NCBI RefSeq assembly: GCF_044647545.1
Contig: NZ_CP172818.1
Length of the DNA: 64,000 nucleotides
Source of the DNA: Escherichia coli
GTDB taxonomy: Bacteria > Pseudomonadota > Gammaproteobacteria > Enterobacterales > Enterobacteriaceae
Direction: 5' to 3' (one strand)
The position numbers and the translations under genes are program-made. Of this stretch, positions 158 through 60,108 are shown piece by piece. The notes beneath the pieces are model-generated. The model was given only the letters and a program-made list of their open reading frames with translations, was not told the origin of the DNA and ran no database searches. Each line of letters starts with the position of its first letter. Within the stretch, counting starts at the first letter, position 1.

Positions 158-178
158 TTTCAGTACTCTAAAATGCCC

Positions 179-227
<49 letters not shown>

Positions 228-390
228 GCATGTATTTGAACGGCGTTTAAAATGGTTTTAAATGAAACTATAATGCGGTAACGATAGGTATTGAAACGCG
301 TGATGAAATTAAATGCTACAACGTTATACGACGAACTCAAAGGCAAGGTGATTTGACTTCCTGATCACGAAGTGTTCCGGCCCGGCAGCC

Positions 391-928
391 AAAAGGGGGG
401 AAAAAGCGGCGCGGAAAAAAAAAAAGCGGGAGGGGAAAGGGGGGATAACCGGGGAGCAAAGGCGGCGAAAGCGAAAAACAAAACGCAAACCCACAAACGG
501 AGGGGGGCGAAAGGAGAACAAAAAGAAAAGGCGAAAGAAAAAAACGCAAAACCAACGCGACGAGGAAGGCCCAACCGGCAAAAAAAAAAGCAACGACGGA
601 AAAAAAAGTGAGAAGTGGCAACAAACGGCGCGCAACGCGAAAAAACGTCAGGAACGCCCCAGGAAGGGGTGAGCGGGGCGGGGGGGAAAAACCACCACGC
701 AACAGCGCGGGAGCCGGGGGGGAGAGGCGCCACACAAACGAAGAAGAAGGGAAAAAAAAAAGGAGGGGGGAGAAAGGAAAAGGGAAAAAAGAACGACACA
801 ACGGGGGCGGGGAAACAAGAACCAAAGAGCGCCAAAACAGGAAGGACACAAGGAAAGCGCGTAAACAAGGGCGGATACAAACAAACGGAAACCACAGAGA
901 ACAGACAAGGAGGAAAAAAAAACCAATA
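391..928. repeat. T-depleted purine-rich low-complexity tract (about 8 T in ~540 nt) with several G-run clusters
   Basis: Direct count on the + strand: whole 60-nt lines with zero T (481-600, 721-840); A roughly half, G about 30 percent, C under 20 percent. Minus strand is correspondingly A-free. Confidence 0.95.
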
Positions 929-1199
929 AAGTACGTGTTGAGTTGATTTTCATTTGTTTGTTACCCAGTTGATTTTGCATATCCAGTATTCGGCCTACGC
1001 GAGGGCGCAGGCCGAATCAGATGTCTTACAACAACAATCCGGTGCGACACGTTGTTTTTCGAAGAAGCCCAGGGTCCGTGTTCAGAATAACAGCAAAAAG
1101 GGGGAGGGGATGCGGCACAAAAAAAATCTTTTATCGCCTCTAATTAAGATGAAGTTTTTTCAACTTCCCTGATTTTTCCTCACCATCATTGGTCATTTT

Positions 1200-6347: not shown

Positions 6348-6492
6348 CTGGTTCGTCCGTGAAAATAAGAGTCACAGATTCGACCTTCCGGGCTAACGAT
6401 TGTTCTGTAGAGAAAATGTCCAGAAGCGGATAAAAAATTCCTGAACAACGTGGGAGTTTCAGACATAACTATAAAAATCTCAACACCCCTTT

Positions 6493-6585
6493 GGGAGAGA
6501 GTCAGGGTGAGGAGGAACAGGCCAGCTCCGGGGCGAATAATCACCCTCACCCCGACCCTCTCCCTGAAAGGGCGAGGGGGAAAAA
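6493..6585. repeat. Intergenic palindromic repeat unit (long imperfect inverted repeat)
   Basis: gggagagagtcagggtgagg ... cctcaccccgaccctctccc forms a ~20-bp-arm inverted repeat; resembles a recurring enterobacterial intergenic palindrome family. Confidence 0.5.
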
Positions 6586-6657
6586 CATGCCCGCAGTGAC
6601 GAGTGAGCCACTTTGCCTGATCTCAAACTCCCGGACAAGCCGGGAGTTTGGAGTAGG

Positions 6658-25206: not shown

Positions 25207-26580
25207 ATGGCACTTTGGGGCGGGCGTTTTACCCAGGCAGCAGATCAACGGTTCAAACAATTCAACGACTCACTGCGCTTTGATTACCGTCTGGCGGAGC
25301 AGGATATTGTTGGCTCTGTGGCCTGGTCCAAAGCCCTGGTAACGGTCGGCGTGTTAACCGCAGAAGAGCAGGCGCAACTGGAAGAGGCGCTGAACGTGCT
25401 GCTGGAAGATGTTCGCGCCAGGCCACAACAAATCCTTGAAAGCGACGCCGAAGATATCCATAGCTGGGTGGAAAGCAAACTGATCGACAAAGTGGGTCAG
25501 TTAGGCAAAAAGCTGCATACCGGGCGTAGCCGTAATGATCAGGTAGCGACTGACCTGAAACTGTGGTGCAAAGATACCGTTAGCGAGTTGCTGACGGCTA
25601 ACCGGCAGTTACAATCCGCTCTGGTCGAGACCGCGCAGAACAATCAGGACGCGGTAATGCCAGGTTACACCCACCTGCAACGTGCTCAACCGGTGACGTT
25701 CGCGCACTGGTGCCTGGCTTACGTGGAGATGCTGGCGCGTGATGAAAGCCGCTTGCAGGATGCGCTTAAGCGTCTGGATGTCAGTCCGTTAGGCTGTGGC
25801 GCGCTGGCGGGAACGGCTTATGAAATCGACCGTGAACAGTTAGCTGGCTGGCTGGGCTTTGCTTCAGCGACCCGTAACAGTCTCGACAGCGTTTCTGACC
25901 GTGACCACGTGCTGGAACTGCTTTCTGCTGCCGCTATCGGCATGGTGCATCTGTCGCGTTTTGCTGAAGATCTGATTTTCTTTAACACCGGCGAAGCGGG
26001 GTTTGTCGAGCTTTCTGACCGTGTGACTTCCGGTTCATCATTAATGCCGCAGAAGAAAAACCCGGATGCGCTGGAGCTGATTCGCGGTAAATGCGGTCGG
26101 GTGCAGGGGGCGTTAACCGGCATGATGATGACGCTGAAAGGTTTGCCGCTGGCTTACAACAAAGATATGCAGGAAGACAAAGAAGGTCTGTTCGACGCGC
26201 TCGATACCTGGCTGGACTGCCTGCATATGGCGGCGCTGGTGCTGGATGGCATTCAGGTGAAACGTCCGCGTTGCCAGGAAGCGGCGCAGCAGGGTTACGC
26301 CAACGCCACTGAACTGGCGGATTACCTGGTGGCGAAAGGCGTACCGTTCCGCGAGGCGCACCATATTGTTGGTGAAGCGGTGGTGGAAGCCATTCGTCAG
26401 GGCAAACCGCTGGAAGAACTACCGCTCAGTGAGTTGCAGAAATTCAGTCAGGTGATTGGCGAAGATGTCTATCCGATTCTGTCGCTACAATCGTGCCTCG
26501 ACAAGCGTGCGGCAAAAGGCGGCGTCTCACCGCAGCAGGTGGCGCAGGCGATTGCTTTTGCGCAGGCTCGGTTAGAGTAA
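25207..26580 (+). CDS. argH: Argininosuccinate lyase
   Basis: 457-aa [29 protein letters not shown]... Confidence 0.97.
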
Positions 26581-26589
26581 GAAATTTTC

Positions 26590-28955
26590 ATCTACTAAAT
26601 TTGATCACCAACCAAAAATAGCACTTCCATATTCATTAATACCGTAAAATCAAGACCGACACGTTTACCAACAACACCAGATATTCAAAACATCAAAAAA
26701 AACATGGCAGAAGTAATTGAAAATAACCAAGGACGAAATCTCGGCACATTTAAAATGATTAATGCAATCGGATATGGGAGAATTAACATGCCATATTAAA
26801 TATTCTCGAAAAGTAGTCCGCTGCTTATCTAAAAGATCATTTCTCTTCAGAAGAAATTTTCAGCGATAACAGGAGCATGGAAGAATAATGGCAACTCCTC
26901 TCTTGAATGTAGAAGGGGACAAGACCCGTCAAGAGGTTAGCTATAACAGACAATAATATAATAATGAAAAATATTAAAGCAAAGTTTGATATTGACCAGA
27001 ACAAAATTTCGGTACCTTACAATAAACACCGTAAGCGGATATTGCCAAATCAGAGAGCGCACAATAAATGAACCGAAGAAGACTACGCAAATCATCAGAA
27101 AAATCAATTTAATCCAAAACTAATTCACCGCGATGCACCCCGTATCCAAAACATTTATCAATTCTGAAGAAAGAAGCATACTCGCGACGACCCCCAACCA
27201 AGAGGTCGGGCACGGAAGACCAGGAGAGGCGTCATAAAAGTATAAAGATAAAACACCAAATATACCAGAATATCAACGTATTAAGTGCGCTTCTAACGAA
27301 CATCTGATGCATGATATCCACAACCCCCGGACCCCGATCGAAGAGGCCCGTGAAGAGAAGAGCAAGACGACACATCCTCTTTAAGATGAAACATGCGAAG
27401 CGCGCTGTAACCCAGAAATGAATCAGTTTTGTTCGGCGAAGACTAAAAGACCGATCGGAACCGGAAATCTAAAACCTTACTCGGAATACAAGCAGTTGAT
27501 CGAAGAAAAGTATATCGATTTTATACCGAAGATGATTAAACCGCAGGCAATAATATCGGGATGAAACAAAATCCCGATCATGACACGCATCATCACCTAA
27601 CTCCCACGCACAGCCCTTCAGATATAACCACTGAGGATTATCCCCGTTCTTGAAGGTAGATCTCACGCTTCCAAACATACGGAATGTTATCGGCGGATTC
27701 ACAATATATGAAGTCATCCCGAATACCTGCCGCGCGAGGAAAACATATCACCAAGGCAAGCAATTAAGCGAAGAGCAGCCTATCAACAAAAATCGCACGA
27801 CGAATATCCATATAACCCGGATTACCTCCACGTACACAATCCAATATGGCATATCTTGGAAAGGACATAACAGTTCGCATAATCATTCACTTCAAACGCA
27901 TCTAATCCATTCATTCCCCTAAATATTTAAAAATGGATGCCGAACTTTCAACTACAGGAGCACAAGGAATAGCAACAAAAAAGGCTTGATCCGACACTAA
28001 TACCTGGCGCATCAATGAAGGTGGGAATCATCAATTCCATCGACCGTTCCTCAGTAATCCTTCAATCAAAAAGATCGTCGAAAGATACGAATGACCCCGA
28101 CTGAATTCCCCTCTCACCACTCGGAGATGGCACTTTTCCGTACACGGAATAACAGAACGCCCAACCAGTATCTGGATAGACAGCTTATCCACAAGAATAC
28201 TTAAAGACCCAAAAATAGAATTCGGGGCATTAATCCGTGCAGCAACAAAAAAACTGCAATCGATTAGCCGTATTATTACAATAACTATCGGTTTATTAAT
28301 TATGGAGGCGACAGTTAATTCCCCCGACCGAACCTAACACAGACTGGTAGGCGAAAAGAAAATTGGAGAGGAAGGATTATCGGAGATTTAACTCAGCGAC
28401 TGTTATCTCTGCGGTTATTCTGTCCCCATCGTTTTTAATAACGCATTTCGCTTTTTTCCTACACCCATTTGTCCCACTAATAGTTTTGGGCGGGGGCCTT
28501 TTATTCTCGGCAGCGATGCAGACATGAACAGAAATGATTAATGCTGATCGCCACGCTATTTAGACGCCGACCGGGCGGAGAAGCGGAGAACCGCCATTTA
28601 TTCCGGTGGGAGGAAGACCGAACAACGAACGGTATGGGCAGAAAGAACCCCCCCCACGGCCCAGGGGGTATTTTACACATCAATCGTGATCTGCCGCGCG
28701 CATGCCCCTGCAACACCTGTATTGAGATAGCTGCCGTTGATCTGGCTCGAAATATTGTCACACCTCGATTCCTTCCCCCATTAACTATTTTCACCCGAAA
28801 CTACGACCCGAAACCGTAAAACTATTCTTTAACCATTACACGTCTTCGTCAATCCCCCCCACCCACTTACTTTATCTCAACCTTTCTGCATTTTCCGGAA
28901 ACCAGGGGATTGCAGATTAACAAAATGGCTTCCATCGCCGGGATTCAAAACTTTG
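26590..28955. other. ~2.3-kb ORF-free, A-rich / G-poor block of unknown origin between argH and oxyS
   Basis: No ORF of 60 aa or more with a plausible start/RBS on either strand (only four overlapping 82-97 aa frames); sampled 100 nt at 27001-27100 counts A44 C22 G17 T17; the K-12 argH-oxyS spacer is ~60 bp from memory. Boundaries approximate. Confidence 0.85.
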
Positions 28956-28964
28956 GCAAAAAAA

Positions 28965-29074
28965 AGCGGATCCTGGAGATCCGCAAAAGTTCACGTTGGC
29001 TTTAGTTATTCGAGTTGAGAAACTCTCGAAACGGGCAGTGACTTCAAGGGTTAAAAGAGGTGCCGCTCCGTTTC
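28965..29074 (-). ncRNA. oxyS: OxyS small regulatory RNA (oxidative-stress sRNA)
   Basis: Minus strand reads GAAACGGAGCGGCACCUCUUUUAACCCUUGAAGUCACUGCCCGUUUCGAGAGUUUCUCAACUCGAAUAACUAAAGCCAACGUGAACUUUUGCGGAUCUCCAGGAUCCGCU, ending in the terminator hairpin plus U-run; divergent from oxyR. Confidence 0.9.
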
Positions 29075-29169
29075 TGTGAGCAATTATCAGTCAGAATGCT
29101 TGATAGGGATAATCGTTCATTGCTATTCTACCTATCGCCATGAACTATCGTGGCGATGGAGGATGGATA

Positions 29170-30087
29170 ATGAATATTCGTGATCTTGAGTACCTGGTGG
29201 CATTGGCTGAACACCGCCATTTTCGGCGTGCGGCAGATTCCTGCCACGTTAGCCAGCCGACGCTTAGCGGGCAAATTCGTAAGCTGGAAGATGAGCTGGG
29301 CGTGATGTTGCTGGAGCGGACCAGCCGTAAAGTGTTATTCACCCAGGCGGGAATGCTGCTGGTGGATCAGGCGCGTACCGTGCTGCGTGAGGTGAAAGTC
29401 CTTAAAGAGATGGCAAGCCAGCAGGGCGAGACGATGTCCGGACCGCTGCATATTGGTTTGATTCCCACGGTTGGACCGTACCTGCTACCGCATATTATCC
29501 CGATGCTGCACCAGACCTTTCCAAAGCTGGAAATGTATCTGCATGAAGCACAGACCCACCAGTTACTGGCGCAACTGGACAGCGGCAAGCTCGATTGCGT
29601 GATCCTCGCGCTGGTGAAAGAGAGCGAAGCATTCATTGAAGTGCCGTTGTTTGATGAGCCAATGTTGCTGGCTATCTATGAAGATCACCCGTGGGCGAAC
29701 CGCGAATGCGTACCGATGGCCGATCTGGCAGGAGAAAAACTGCTGATGCTGGAAGATGGTCACTGTTTGCGCGATCAGGCAATGGGGTTCTGTTTTGAAG
29801 CCGGGGCGGATGAAGATACACACTTCCGCGCGACCAGCCTGGAGACGCTGCGCAACATGGTGGCGGCAGGTAGCGGGATCACTTTATTGCCAGCGCTGGC
29901 TGTGCCGCCGGAGCGCAAACGCGATGGGGTTGTTTATCTGCCGTGCATTAAGCCGGAACCACGCCGCACTATTGGCCTGGTTTATCGTCCTGGCTCACCA
30001 CTGCGCAGCCGCTATGAGCAGCTGGCAGAGGCCATCCGCGCAAGAATGGATGGCCATTTCGATAAAGTGTTAAAACAGGCGGTTTAA
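29170..30087 (+). CDS. oxyR: LysR-family hydrogen-peroxide-responsive transcriptional regulator
   Basis: 305 aa from internal Met ([40 protein letters not shown]...); redox cysteines present. Confidence 0.97.
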
Positions 30088-37338: not shown

Positions 37339-38880
<1,542 letters not shown>

Positions 38881-38958
38881 CCTTAAAGAAGCGTACTTTG
38901 AAGTGCTCACACAGATTGTCTGATAGAAAGTGAAAAGCAAGGCGTAAGCAGACGATAC

Positions 38959-39229: not shown

Positions 39230-42134
<2,905 letters not shown>

Positions 42135-59896: not shown

Positions 59897-59922
59897 AAAA
59901 ACCCGCTTCGGCGGTTTTTTTA
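59897..59922 (+). terminator. Intrinsic terminator downstream of rpoC
   Basis: aaaaacccgcttcggcggttttttt: short GC stem with ttcg loop and U-run. Confidence 0.75.
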
Positions 59923-60108
59923 AACAAATCCAGACTTTGCTTCACGGGAAATATTAAGAAAGGCAGGGCGAAACGAGGAAGAAGCTTTTCGCCCTGGACA
60001 ACATTCCTGCTGACGGCACTACCATAAAAAAACACAACGCTTTCAACAACCTTGCGTTTTTCATCTTCCGTAGCGGCTCGGAATAAATTTACGTTGTTAC
60101 ATTCTGTT

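What the first reader, a model, noticed from the sequence alone, without database searches (positions are those of the whole stretch)
26590..28955. ~2.3-kb ORF-free, A-rich block between argH and oxyS
The spacer between the argH stop (26580) and the oxyS 3' end (28965) is ~2.4 kb here, versus ~60 bp in E. coli K-12 as I recall it. The extra DNA has no credible gene in any frame: only four overlapping 82-97 aa frames, none with an RBS. It is strongly strand-asymmetric (A44 C22 G17 T17 in the 100 nt I counted at 27001-27100) against a ~50 percent GC host. I see no terminal inverted repeats, no transposase or integrase, no CRISPR-like periodic repeats and no motif of a known large RNA. Candidates, in my order of likelihood: non-native DNA (engineered insert, assembly or synthetic-sequence artefact), horizontally acquired noncoding DNA, or a novel long noncoding RNA locus. 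I cannot decide between these from sequence alone.
Basis: partly seen in the sequence, partly recalled or inferred. Interest (0 to 1): 0.7.

Follow-up and report, generated by a model that had tools for sequence, protein, structure and literature searches.

The report
Corrupted copy of manD–MFS island
The 2.4-kb gene-free, A-rich block between argH and oxyS is a scrambled, dead copy of two ordinary genes (manD and an MFS transporter) that sit intact at this spot in the closest E. coli relatives, and its error pattern points to a sequence-data artefact, not to new biology.

Summary
Window 26581-28958 has no ORF longer than 97 aa, is A-rich and G-poor on the + strand, and gives no Rfam hit. It is not foreign or novel DNA.

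- **Flanks:** they are 100% identical to ST648-type (phylogroup F) E. coli.
- **What normally sits here:** in those genomes this slot holds manD plus an MFS transporter gene.
- **Homology:** the block is colinear with that island, intergenic parts included, at only about 63% identity (E 3e-62). At sites that separate the F and B2 alleles it carries the F base 52 to 7.
- **The differences do not look like evolution:** Ts/Tv is 0.6, against 4.0 for natural alleles. All three codon positions are hit equally. Complementary changes differ 2-5 fold between strands. Changes are independent from site to site. Identity drops in a step exactly after the argH stop codon. One stretch has nearly every G deleted.
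- **A second block of the same kind:** window 159-1155 holds a 43-nt poly(A) run and about 540 nt almost free of T.
- **Not found elsewhere:** no complete E. coli genome, metagenome contig or protein collection holds the block.
- **A related public record:** assembly CP092703.1, of the same lineage, is N-masked over exactly this interval.

Verdict: a corrupted (assembly, consensus or in-silico) rendering of the manD-MFS island, and not a real feature. Low interest.

The parts
25207..26580 (+). argH, intact. This is the last undamaged DNA on the left; corruption starts at the base after its TAA stop.
   Evidence: 100% identical over 1374 nt to IMT16316, ST648, ECONIH1 and others. The alignment is perfect up to 26580.
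26581..26963 (+). Degenerate copy of the argH-manD intergenic region of the F-type island (L001 2890-3290). The first 84 nt of that region (L001 2806-2889), which include a GC-rich hairpin (GCTCCCC...GGGGAGC) that I read as the argH terminator, are missing.
   Evidence: Colinear alignment at about 0.60 identity. The first 24 nt can be derived from L001 2890-2924 by deletions of mostly G and T.
26964..28149 (+). Degenerate manD (D-mannonate dehydratase) remnant. It has no reading frame.
   Evidence: Maps to L001 3291-4505. Identity at codon positions 1/2/3 is 0.605/0.613/0.654. tblastn with ManD gives fragments in all three frames at 23-44% aa identity, best E 6e-21, and there are 33-37 stops per + frame over the block.
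28150..28214 (+). Degenerate manD-MFS intergenic spacer.
   Evidence: Maps to L001 4506-4571.
28215..28928 (+). Degenerate MFS-transporter remnant. The last part, 28767-28925, is the F-type sequence with nearly every G deleted.
   Evidence: Maps to L001 4572-5400. Window 28767-28925 gives 139 matches in 148 aligned positions against L001 5132-5397 with all G removed; removing A, C or T instead gives 100-107 matches. G content is 6% at 28781-28880.
28929..28958 (+). Undamaged 30-nt internal fragment of the MFS gene (L001 5401-5430). It is joined directly to the oxyS terminator tail, and 188 nt of the F-type sequence (L001 5431-5618) are missing. It overlaps the piece of the MFS gene that has a recognisable relic in the K-12 spacer.
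   Evidence: 30 of 30 identical. My estimate of the chance under the block's error rate is about 0.62^30, or 6e-7, using the mismatch fraction. The K-12 relic TGGCTT--ATCGCCGGGCTT matches this site with 0 of 200 shuffles scoring as well. No complete genome has the junction, and neither does any metagenome contig.
28959..29074 (-). oxyS small RNA with its terminator tail, intact.
   Evidence: Rfam RF00035 at 28965-29074, 139.5 bits. Terminator-like hairpin at 28984-28966 followed by a T-run. 100% identical to ST648-type genomes from 28959 onward.
29170..30087 (+). oxyR, intact. This is the right-hand context.
   Evidence: Aligns 100% to the annotated oxyR of IMT16316.
159..1155 (+). Second block of the same kind, outside the finding. 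It is a collapsed and corrupted copy of the metL-metF accessory island (a hypothetical protein plus a 5'-nucleotidase/metallophosphatase gene). It contains a 43-nt poly(A) run at 182-224 and a nearly T-free stretch at 385-925.
   Evidence: The T-free stretch gives 467 matches over its 541 nt to the reference CDS with all T removed; the shuffled control has a mean of 394 and a maximum of 408.

Best explanation
The block is the manD-MFS transporter accessory island that normally occupies the argH-oxyS slot in phylogroup F (ST648-type) and B2 E. coli. Here it is written in a heavily corrupted form: about 37% of positions are changed, there are about 35 small deletions, and it is truncated at both edges. 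It encodes nothing and is not an element in its own right.

The corruption is most likely not biological. I read it as an error-laden rendering of DNA that is absent from K-12-like references. That could be an assembly or consensus artefact, such as an insertion filled from uncorrected noisy data, or a deliberate in-silico mutation. All DNA shared with K-12 is rendered perfectly.

**Shown:** homology to the F-allele island, loss of all coding signal, a non-evolutionary error spectrum, step-like edges, and absence from every collection searched.

**Inferred:** that the cause is computational or technical rather than a cellular process. Which pipeline produced it is unknown.
For: 1. **Flanks.** argH and the 25 kb to its left, and everything from 28959 to 64000, are 99.9-100% identical to ST648-type genomes.

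2. **Normal content of the slot.** Those genomes hold manD and an MFS gene exactly in this position. Nissle 1917 (B2) has the same arrangement.

3. **Colinear homology.** It runs end to end at 64.8% identity, E 3e-62, in 139 genomes. Identity is flat at 0.55-0.73 per 100 nt, with steps from and to 1.0 at 26580/26581 and 28928/28929.

4. **Derivation from the F allele.** At the 76 sites where the F and B2 alleles differ, the window carries the F base at 52, the B2 base at 7 and neither at 17.

5. **The spectrum is not evolutionary.**
   - There are 294 transitions and 493 transversions (0.6). The natural F-versus-B2 pair has 72 and 18 (4.0).
   - Codon-position identity is 0.605/0.613/0.654, against 1.0/0.993/0.938 for the natural pair.
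   - Reference A is kept at 87%, C at 66%, and G and T at 52%.
   - T>A is 19.5% but A>T is 3.6%. G>C is 17.7% but C>G is 3.4%.

6. **A memoryless process.** Lag-1 autocorrelation is r=0.03. Five of six neighbour-context tests are null and one is marginal (p=0.012). Match runs are geometric, with a mean of 1.62 observed and 1.62 expected, and 7 runs of at least 10 against 6.6 expected.

7. **Single-base dropout.** Nearly every G is deleted in 28767-28925. Almost every T is lost in window 385-925 of the second block, which also holds a 43-nt poly(A) run. Such base-depleted 100-nt windows occur nowhere else in the 64 kb.

8. **Link to K-12.** Apart from ordinary rrn-copy variants, every difference between the window and ST648-type genomes lies in DNA that does not align to K-12, or at a structural breakpoint against K-12.

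9. **Absent from public data.** The block has no megablast match beyond 40 nt in 5,426 complete genomes. Its junctions are not found. Exact k-mers give no hits in metagenome or genome contigs. None of 19 ORF products from the two blocks is in a collection of 15 billion proteins.

10. **A masked public record.** CP092703.1 has the same ArgH and is nucleotide-identical on both flanks apart from N. It is N-masked over exactly the interval from the argH stop to the oxyS A-run, and also at the ppc-argE site where the window has a 7-nt deletion.
Against: - I cannot see reads or the provenance of the window, so 'artefact' is an inference from pattern and not a demonstration.
- A saturated neutral decay would also look independent from site to site, and the drift in composition is towards lower GC, which is the usual direction for bacterial pseudogenes.
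- The source is not simply a corrupted IMT16316. The right junction has the same architecture as the K-12 relic spacer. A small patch at 59912-59939 shares a 10-mer with K-12 and not with ST648. So some genuine lineage-specific structure may underlie the block.
- I know of no specific software whose failure mode gives exactly this mixture of biased substitution and single-base dropout.
- The two blocks have different biases: A/C-rich here and A/G-rich in block 1.
Confidence: 0.8

Rival explanations
1. It is a genuine biological relic. On this view the manD-MFS island was inactivated and then eroded in the cell, either by long neutral decay or by a localised, strand-specific hypermutation process, while the flanks stayed clonal.
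For: - The block is colinear with the island and has lost all coding signal, as a pseudogene would.
- Deletions outnumber insertions, about 35 small ones against 4, which is the usual bacterial bias.
- GC has fallen.
- K-12's 54-nt spacer really does contain a decayed relic of the same MFS fragment with the same right-hand junction, so this island has been lost by decay and deletion in nature.
Against: - 37% observed difference corresponds to about 0.5 substitutions per site (my Jukes-Cantor estimate). Next to it are more than 60 kb of flanks with no substitution in any protein-coding gene relative to ST648-type genomes.
- Ts/Tv is 0.6, and complementary changes are 2-5 fold asymmetric between strands.
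- One base is deleted wholesale from one strand in sub-stretches.
- There is a 43-nt poly(A) run in the sister block.
- The edges are steps, one exactly after a stop codon, and a perfect 30-mer abuts 37% divergence.
- The two blocks have different biases.
- No intermediate exists in 5,426 genomes.
Confidence: 0.12
2. It is engineered or foreign non-native DNA, such as a vector, a cassette or horizontally acquired noncoding DNA, inserted between argH and oxyS.
For: The block is absent from K-12. Its composition is unusual for the host.
Against: - The entire length from 26581 to 28958 is accounted for by colinear homology to the native island, leaving no room for an insert.
- The only 'plasmid' hits are Mb-sized E. 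coli records carrying the same manD-MFS locus at 69% identity, which I take to be chromosomes filed as plasmids. There are no phage hits.
- There are no inverted terminal repeats and no transposase- or integrase-sized ORF.
Confidence: 0.03
3. It is a novel long noncoding RNA locus, or another functional noncoding element.
For: About 2.4 kb has no ORF and a strong strand asymmetry. It lies next to a known small-RNA gene.
Against: - No Rfam family matches at E<=1.
- Mean folding z-score is +0.04 on the + strand and -0.06 on the - strand over 30 windows each, no better than the argCBH coding control.
- There are 8 promoter-like sites against 5.6 +/- 2.8 in shuffles. There are 8 terminator-like sites against 3.5 +/- 2.0, most of them overlapping variants of one hairpin, plus oxyS's own terminator.
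- No homologue exists on which covariation could be tested.
- The sequence is explained by descent from protein-coding genes.
Confidence: 0.02

Closest known systems
manD (D-mannonate dehydratase) + MFS transporter accessory island in the argH-oxyS slot of E. coli phylogroups F and B2 (for example IMT16316 NZ_CP023815.1 and Nissle 1917 NZ_CP022686.1)
   Same: It has the same chromosomal slot, the same order and orientation, and colinear nucleotide homology through both genes and both intergenic regions. It carries F-allele-specific bases.
   Different: Identity is about 63% instead of the 97-100% seen between natural alleles. There is no ORF and no codon-position pattern. Segments of 84 nt and 188 nt next to the core genes are missing, and the substitution pattern is strand-asymmetric.
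The 54-nt argH-oxyS spacer of E. coli K-12, a natural relic left after loss of the island
   Same: The right-hand junction has the same architecture: an internal MFS fragment (TGGCTT..ATCGCCGGG...GGC) is fused directly to the A8/T8 tail of the oxyS terminator.
   Different: K-12 keeps only 54 nt, and its relic has itself diverged. The window keeps 2.4 kb, and its copy of the fragment is 100% F-type.
Ordinary bacterial pseudogenes (neutral decay with deletion bias)
   Same: The reading frame is lost, deletions outnumber insertions, and GC is lower.
   Different: Natural decay is transition-rich, nearly strand-symmetric, and accompanied by divergence of the neighbouring synonymous sites. None of these holds here.
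Localised hypermutation systems (diversity-generating retroelements, deaminase-type clustered mutation)
   Same: The change is dense, confined to a delimited tract and strand-biased.
   Different: From my general knowledge, DGRs change template adenines over roughly 100-200 nt and need a reverse transcriptase and a template repeat, and deaminases give C>T or G>A in a motif context. Here A is the best-preserved base and all 12 substitution types occur. Five of six context tests are null. There are no repeats. Deletions of a single base type dominate in places.
Unresolved or low-quality stretches in public assemblies, such as CP092703.1 (GCA_022488285.1), which is N-masked at this locus
   Same: Same lineage and identical flanks. 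The trouble is confined to exactly the interval from the argH stop to the oxyS tail and to the ppc-argE breakpoint.
   Different: That record writes N over 298 nt. The window writes 2,378 definite but wrong-looking letters.

Membership tests
manD-MFS accessory island of E. coli (as a remnant) | Located between argH and oxyS/oxyR, in the same orientation | tested here: met
manD-MFS accessory island of E. coli (as a remnant) | Significant colinear nucleotide homology across both genes and the intergenic parts | tested here: met
   89% of the block is covered at 64.8% identity with E 3e-62. The window carries the F-allele base at 52 sites against 7 for the B2 base.
manD-MFS accessory island of E. 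coli (as a functional locus) | Intact ORFs for ManD (404 aa) and the MFS transporter (335-427 aa) | tested here: not met
   The longest ORF is 97 aa. There are 33-37 stops per + frame, and tblastn fragments are scattered over three frames. There is no period-3 signal.
Natural bacterial pseudogene | A substitution spectrum like that of natural alleles: transition-rich and close to strand-symmetric | tested here: not met
   Ts/Tv is 0.6 against 4.0 for the natural F/B2 pair. Complementary changes differ 2-5 fold.
Natural bacterial pseudogene | Divergence of neighbouring neutral sites commensurate with that of the pseudogene, with gradual rather than step-like edges | tested here: not met
   The flanks are 100% identical in all protein-coding genes. 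Identity steps at 26580/26581 and 28928/28929.
Natural bacterial pseudogene | Presence of the same or intermediate states in related genomes | tested here: not met
   None in 5,426 complete genomes, in metagenome or genome contigs, or in the protein collection.
Structured large noncoding RNA | Match to a described family, or thermodynamic stability beyond shuffled sequence | tested here: not met
   Rfam gives only OxyS. Mean z is about 0 on both strands.
Structured large noncoding RNA | Covariation among homologues | not testable with these tools
   No homologue of the block as such exists in any collection searched.
Mobile element or integrated island (IS, transposon, integrative element) | Terminal inverted or direct repeats and a transposase or integrase gene | tested here: not met
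   Only short, imperfect two-copy repeats that look like chance matches, none at the block's ends. No ORF longer than 97 aa. No phage or true plasmid matches.
Diversity-generating retroelement variable region | Adenine-specific differences relative to a template repeat, with a reverse transcriptase nearby | tested here: not met
   A is the least-changed base, at 13.5%. There is no repeat partner within 26400-29200. Outside the two corrupted blocks the window aligns throughout with the IMT16316 record, whose annotation there lists no reverse transcriptase.
Sequence-data artefact (uncorrected, mis-called or synthetic sequence) | An error pattern independent of biological context: memoryless, context-free, blind to codon position, with abrupt boundaries | tested here: met
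   Single-base dropout. Poly(A)43.
Sequence-data artefact (uncorrected, mis-called or synthetic sequence) | Not supported by raw reads or PCR across the junctions | not testable with these tools
   No reads and no provenance are available for the window.

The most novel reading that the evidence does not exclude
The block and its sister at 159-1155 are real DNA. On this reading an otherwise clonal ST648-type E. coli has subjected two accessory islands, and only DNA absent from the K-12-like core, to an intense, strand-specific erosion. That process would substitute or delete particular bases on the coding strand and would amount to a bacterial genome-defence or gene-silencing mechanism by targeted hypermutation, loosely analogous to fungal RIP.
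Probability: 0.03. Interest if true: 0.9.

Novelty: not a real feature. Interest (0 to 1): 0.08.

Why it matters
As biology it matters little. The locus is the well-known variable slot between argH and oxyS, and its normal content in this lineage, manD plus an MFS transporter, is already annotated in thousands of genomes.

It matters as quality control. A scan for gene-free DNA of odd composition will flag corrupted renderings of accessory DNA as candidate novel RNAs or foreign inserts.

A quick way to dismiss them is to run a low-stringency nucleotide search of the block against the genomes whose flanks are identical, and then check codon position, Ts/Tv and strand symmetry.

Only if reads confirmed the sequence would it become important. 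It would then be evidence for an unknown targeted hypermutation process.

Tried and rejected
- **Rfam at permissive threshold**: only OxyS matched.
- **Megablast of the block**: this found nothing beyond 40 nt. Taken alone it would have suggested an orphan sequence. The lower-stringency blastn revealed the homology.
- **Vector, phage or plasmid origin**: rejected.
- **Mobile element**: rejected.
- **Structured RNA**: rejected.
- **Derivation from the B2 allele or from a foreign ortholog:** rejected by the 52:7 allele-specific sites and by the flat codon-position profile.
- **Deaminase-like or DGR-like mutagenesis:** rejected by the spectrum and the lack of sequence context.
- **A K-12-type origin for the first 24 nt of the block:** considered. 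The similarity is marginal (8 of 200 shuffles score as well), and the stretch is equally well derived from the F island by deletions of G and T.
- **Identifying the source assembly** by exact look-up of 19 ORF products and by exact k-mer scans: nothing found.
- **Literature search for CP092703 / GCA_022488285**: nothing found.
- **A majority vote with alphabetical tie-break (A<C<G<T) as the cause of the A>C>G~T bias:** it fits block 2 but not block 1, where G exceeds C, so I do not claim it.
- **Small intergenic differences as the same corruption:** I first read the differences at 6465-6500, 17148, 22041 and 59912-59939 this way. The last shares a 10-mer with K-12, so at least part of these may be genuine variation at hot spots. 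None is found in any complete genome.
Full report
**Observation**

- OxyS is the Rfam match RF00035 at 28965-29074 on the minus strand, at 139.5 bits.
- The longest ORFs are 82, 90, 92 and 97 aa.
- Bases 27001-27100 count exactly A44 C22 G17 T17.
- GC is 0.33-0.47 against 0.50-0.60 in the flanks, with a strong excess of A over T and of C over G on the + strand.
- There are no terminal inverted repeats, periodic repeats or tandem arrays in the block, and no coding periodicity.
- The K-12 spacer is 54 nt.

**What the DNA is**

argH is 100% identical to several complete genomes of the ST648 type, including IMT16316, ST648 and ECONIH1. The 25 kb to the left are 99.9% identical to those genomes, and the 35 kb from 28959 to 64000 are 99.9% identical to IMT16316. 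All differences lie outside protein-coding genes.

A high-stringency search of the block against 5,426 complete E. coli genomes found only a 40-nt match at its right end. A low-stringency search found 139 genomes that cover at least 80% of it in one colinear place, about 89% at 64.8% identity in the best hits (E 3e-62). The features under the match are manD (D-mannonate dehydratase) and an MFS transporter.

In IMT16316 these two genes fill exactly the slot between argH and oxyR. Nissle 1917 has the same arrangement, and so do most contigs that encode this exact ArgH protein.

A global alignment shows 100% identity up to the argH stop codon. About 63% identity follows through the upstream intergenic region, manD, the manD-MFS spacer and the MFS gene. 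A perfect 30-mer follows at 28929-28958, and identity is 100% again from the oxyS terminator tail onward.

The mapping is:
- upstream intergenic remnant, 26581-26963
- manD remnant, 26964-28149
- manD-MFS spacer, 28150-28214
- MFS remnant, 28215-28958

Relative to the F-type island, three things are missing: 84 nt just after argH, 188 nt just before oxyS, and many short pieces.

At the 76 aligned sites where the F-type and B2-type islands differ, the window has the F base at 52, the B2 base at 7 and neither at 17. The block therefore descends from the island of its own lineage and not from a foreign homologue.

**Why the divergence is not ordinary evolution**

The two natural alleles, F and B2, serve as a control. 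They are 97.0% identical, with 72 transitions and 18 transversions. Identity at manD codon positions 1, 2 and 3 is 1.000, 0.993 and 0.938.

The block against the F allele looks quite different:
- It has 294 transitions and 493 transversions.
- Codon-position identities are 0.605, 0.613 and 0.654, and the intergenic part diverges just as much.
- The fate of a base depends on which strand it is on. Reference A is kept at 87%, C at 66%, and G and T at 52%.
- T>A is 19.5% but A>T is 3.6%. G>C is 17.7% but C>G is 3.4%. T>G is 13.3% but A>C is 3.9%.

Changes are independent from site to site: lag-1 r is 0.03, and the lengths of matching runs are exactly geometric. Five of six neighbour tests are null, and one is marginal at p=0.012. 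The error rate is flat along the block with step edges.

In the last 160 nt the process changes character. Window 28767-28925 is the F sequence with nearly every G deleted, giving 139 matches in 148 aligned positions to the G-less reference.

An observed difference of 37% corresponds to about 0.5 substitutions per site (my Jukes-Cantor estimate). That cannot be reconciled with zero substitutions in the protein-coding genes of more than 60 kb of flanks, except by a mutation process confined to the block. I know of no cellular process that substitutes all four bases at base-specific, strand-specific rates and removes one base type from one strand.

**A second block and the link to K-12**

Comparing the whole window with IMT16316 shows a second block of the same kind at 159-1155, in the accessory island between metL and metF.
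- It begins right after the metL stop codon.
- It keeps an exact 21-mer from 396 nt further into the island.
- It then has a 43-nt poly(A) run.
- It then holds about 540 nt that are almost free of T yet still colinear with the 5'-nucleotidase gene. There are 467 matches over 541 nt to the T-less reference, against a maximum of 408 for shuffles.

100-nt windows depleted of one base occur only in these two blocks.

Aligning the window and the ST648 reference to K-12 shows a pattern. Apart from ordinary rrn-copy variants, every place where the window departs from ST648-type genomes is DNA that K-12 lacks, or a structural breakpoint against K-12: 183-1149, 6464-6622, 17149, 22042, 26605-28925 and 59922-59930.

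The short pieces of island that have a recognisable relic in K-12's spacers are rendered well. These are the 21-mer at 159-179 and the 30-mer at 28929-28958.

The right-hand junction of the block, an MFS fragment fused to the oxyS tail, has the architecture of the K-12 relic spacer. No complete genome and no metagenome contig has that junction with the F-type sequence.

**Absence from public data, and a telling neighbour**

- Exact k-mers of the block are absent from the metagenome and genome contig collections.
- None of 19 ORF products of the two blocks is in the 15-billion-protein collection.
- Plasmid and phage collections give nothing except Mb-sized E. coli records filed as plasmids that carry the same manD-MFS locus.

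Among contigs encoding this exact ArgH there is one unusual record, CP092703.1 (4.68 Mb). It is nucleotide-identical to the window on both flanks apart from N. It is masked with N over exactly the interval from the argH stop to the oxyS A-run. It also has N at CCNGG sites and at the ppc-argE breakpoint where the window has a 7-nt deletion.

So a public assembly of this lineage could not resolve these same spots. This supports a technical cause, but it does not identify one.

**Rival readings**

- **Functional noncoding RNA.** Nothing supports it: no Rfam match, mean folding z of +0.04 and -0.06, promoter- and terminator-like sites at shuffle level, and no homologues for covariation.
- **Foreign or engineered insert.** This is excluded, because the native island accounts for the whole length.
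- **A genuine in-cell decay or hypermutation.** I cannot formally exclude this without reads. The block looks like a pseudogene in outline, and this island has decayed to a relic in K-12. But the spectrum, the strand asymmetry, the single-base dropout, the poly(A) run, the step edges, the different biases of the two blocks and the lack of any intermediate all argue against it. I give it about 0.12 in total, of which the exciting version, a targeted erosion mechanism, gets about 0.03.

**Verdict**

The finding is a correct observation of an incorrect-looking sequence. It is a corrupted, non-functional rendering of the manD-MFS transporter island of ST648-type E. coli. The most probable cause is an assembly, consensus or synthetic artefact confined to DNA that is absent from K-12-like references.

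It is not a new element. Interest is low. The useful follow-up is to check the reads or run one PCR.

Noticed in passing
window 159-1155: A second corrupted block in the metL-metF accessory island. It starts right after the metL stop codon and has an exact 21-mer at 159-179, a 43-nt poly(A) run at 182-224, and a nearly T-free A/G-rich stretch at 385-925 that is still colinear with the 5'-nucleotidase/metallophosphatase gene of IMT16316. The stretch 928-1155 is only lightly damaged (about 88-93% identical), and identity is 100% from 1156. About 3 kb of island is collapsed to about 1 kb.
   Followed up: partly
window 6465-6510 and 6619-6620 (yijF-gldA intergenic region): A patch that differs from all best-matching ST648-type genomes. 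It has a 19-nt gap and scattered changes, mostly losses of G or replacements by A, in a REP-like segment that K-12 lacks. It is not found jointly with the other variants in any complete genome.
   Followed up: partly
window 22041/22042 (ppc-argE intergenic region) and 17148/17149 (yijO-eptC): A 7-nt deletion (CATTGTT) and a 1-nt deletion relative to ST648-type genomes. Each lies exactly at a breakpoint where K-12 has extra REP-type DNA (298 nt and 78 nt). CP092703.1 has 8 N at the first site.
   Followed up: partly
window 59912-59939 (between the rpoC terminator and thiH): A patch that is unique among 5,426 genomes, with a best match of 94.8%. It is part ST648-like and part K-12-like: it shares CAGACTTTGC with K-12, where ST648 has the inverted GCAAAGTC. 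This spot is naturally variable, and ST648-type genomes lack yjaZ and sroH, which K-12 has here.
   Followed up: partly
window 38345-38360, 38945-38953, 40399-40439 (rrn operon: 16S rRNA, the 16S-23S spacer next to tRNA-Glu, and 23S rRNA): Clustered differences from IMT16316. They look like ordinary variation between rRNA operon copies, for example a block of changes in a 16S helix. They do not look like the corruption seen in the two blocks.
   Followed up: no
L001 5132 (IMT16316) versus L007 (Nissle 1917): The F-type MFS transporter gene has an in-frame 276-nt deletion relative to the B2-type gene (335 aa against 427 aa). The transporter may therefore already be impaired in ST648-type strains. 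Another contig with the same ArgH (OW967003.1) has manD cut to 183 aa.
   Followed up: no
L008 28725-28778 (the K-12 argH-oxyS spacer) and L008 2769-2794 (K-12 downstream of metL): The short K-12 spacers contain diverged relics of the islands present in F and B2 strains. One is an MFS-gene fragment that forms part of what looks like the K-12 argH terminator hairpin. The other is a fragment from inside the hypothetical gene next to metL. K-12 therefore appears to have lost both islands by deletion, rather than F and B2 strains having gained them.
   Followed up: partly
L016 (CP092703.1, GCA_022488285.1): A public 4.68-Mb 'complete' E. coli record with N at CCNGG (Dcm-type) sites and N-masked accessory intervals. 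In the 10-kb locus examined, several standard genes (for example ppc, argE and argB) have no gene call on record. It is worth flagging as a low-quality or reference-shaped assembly.
   Followed up: partly
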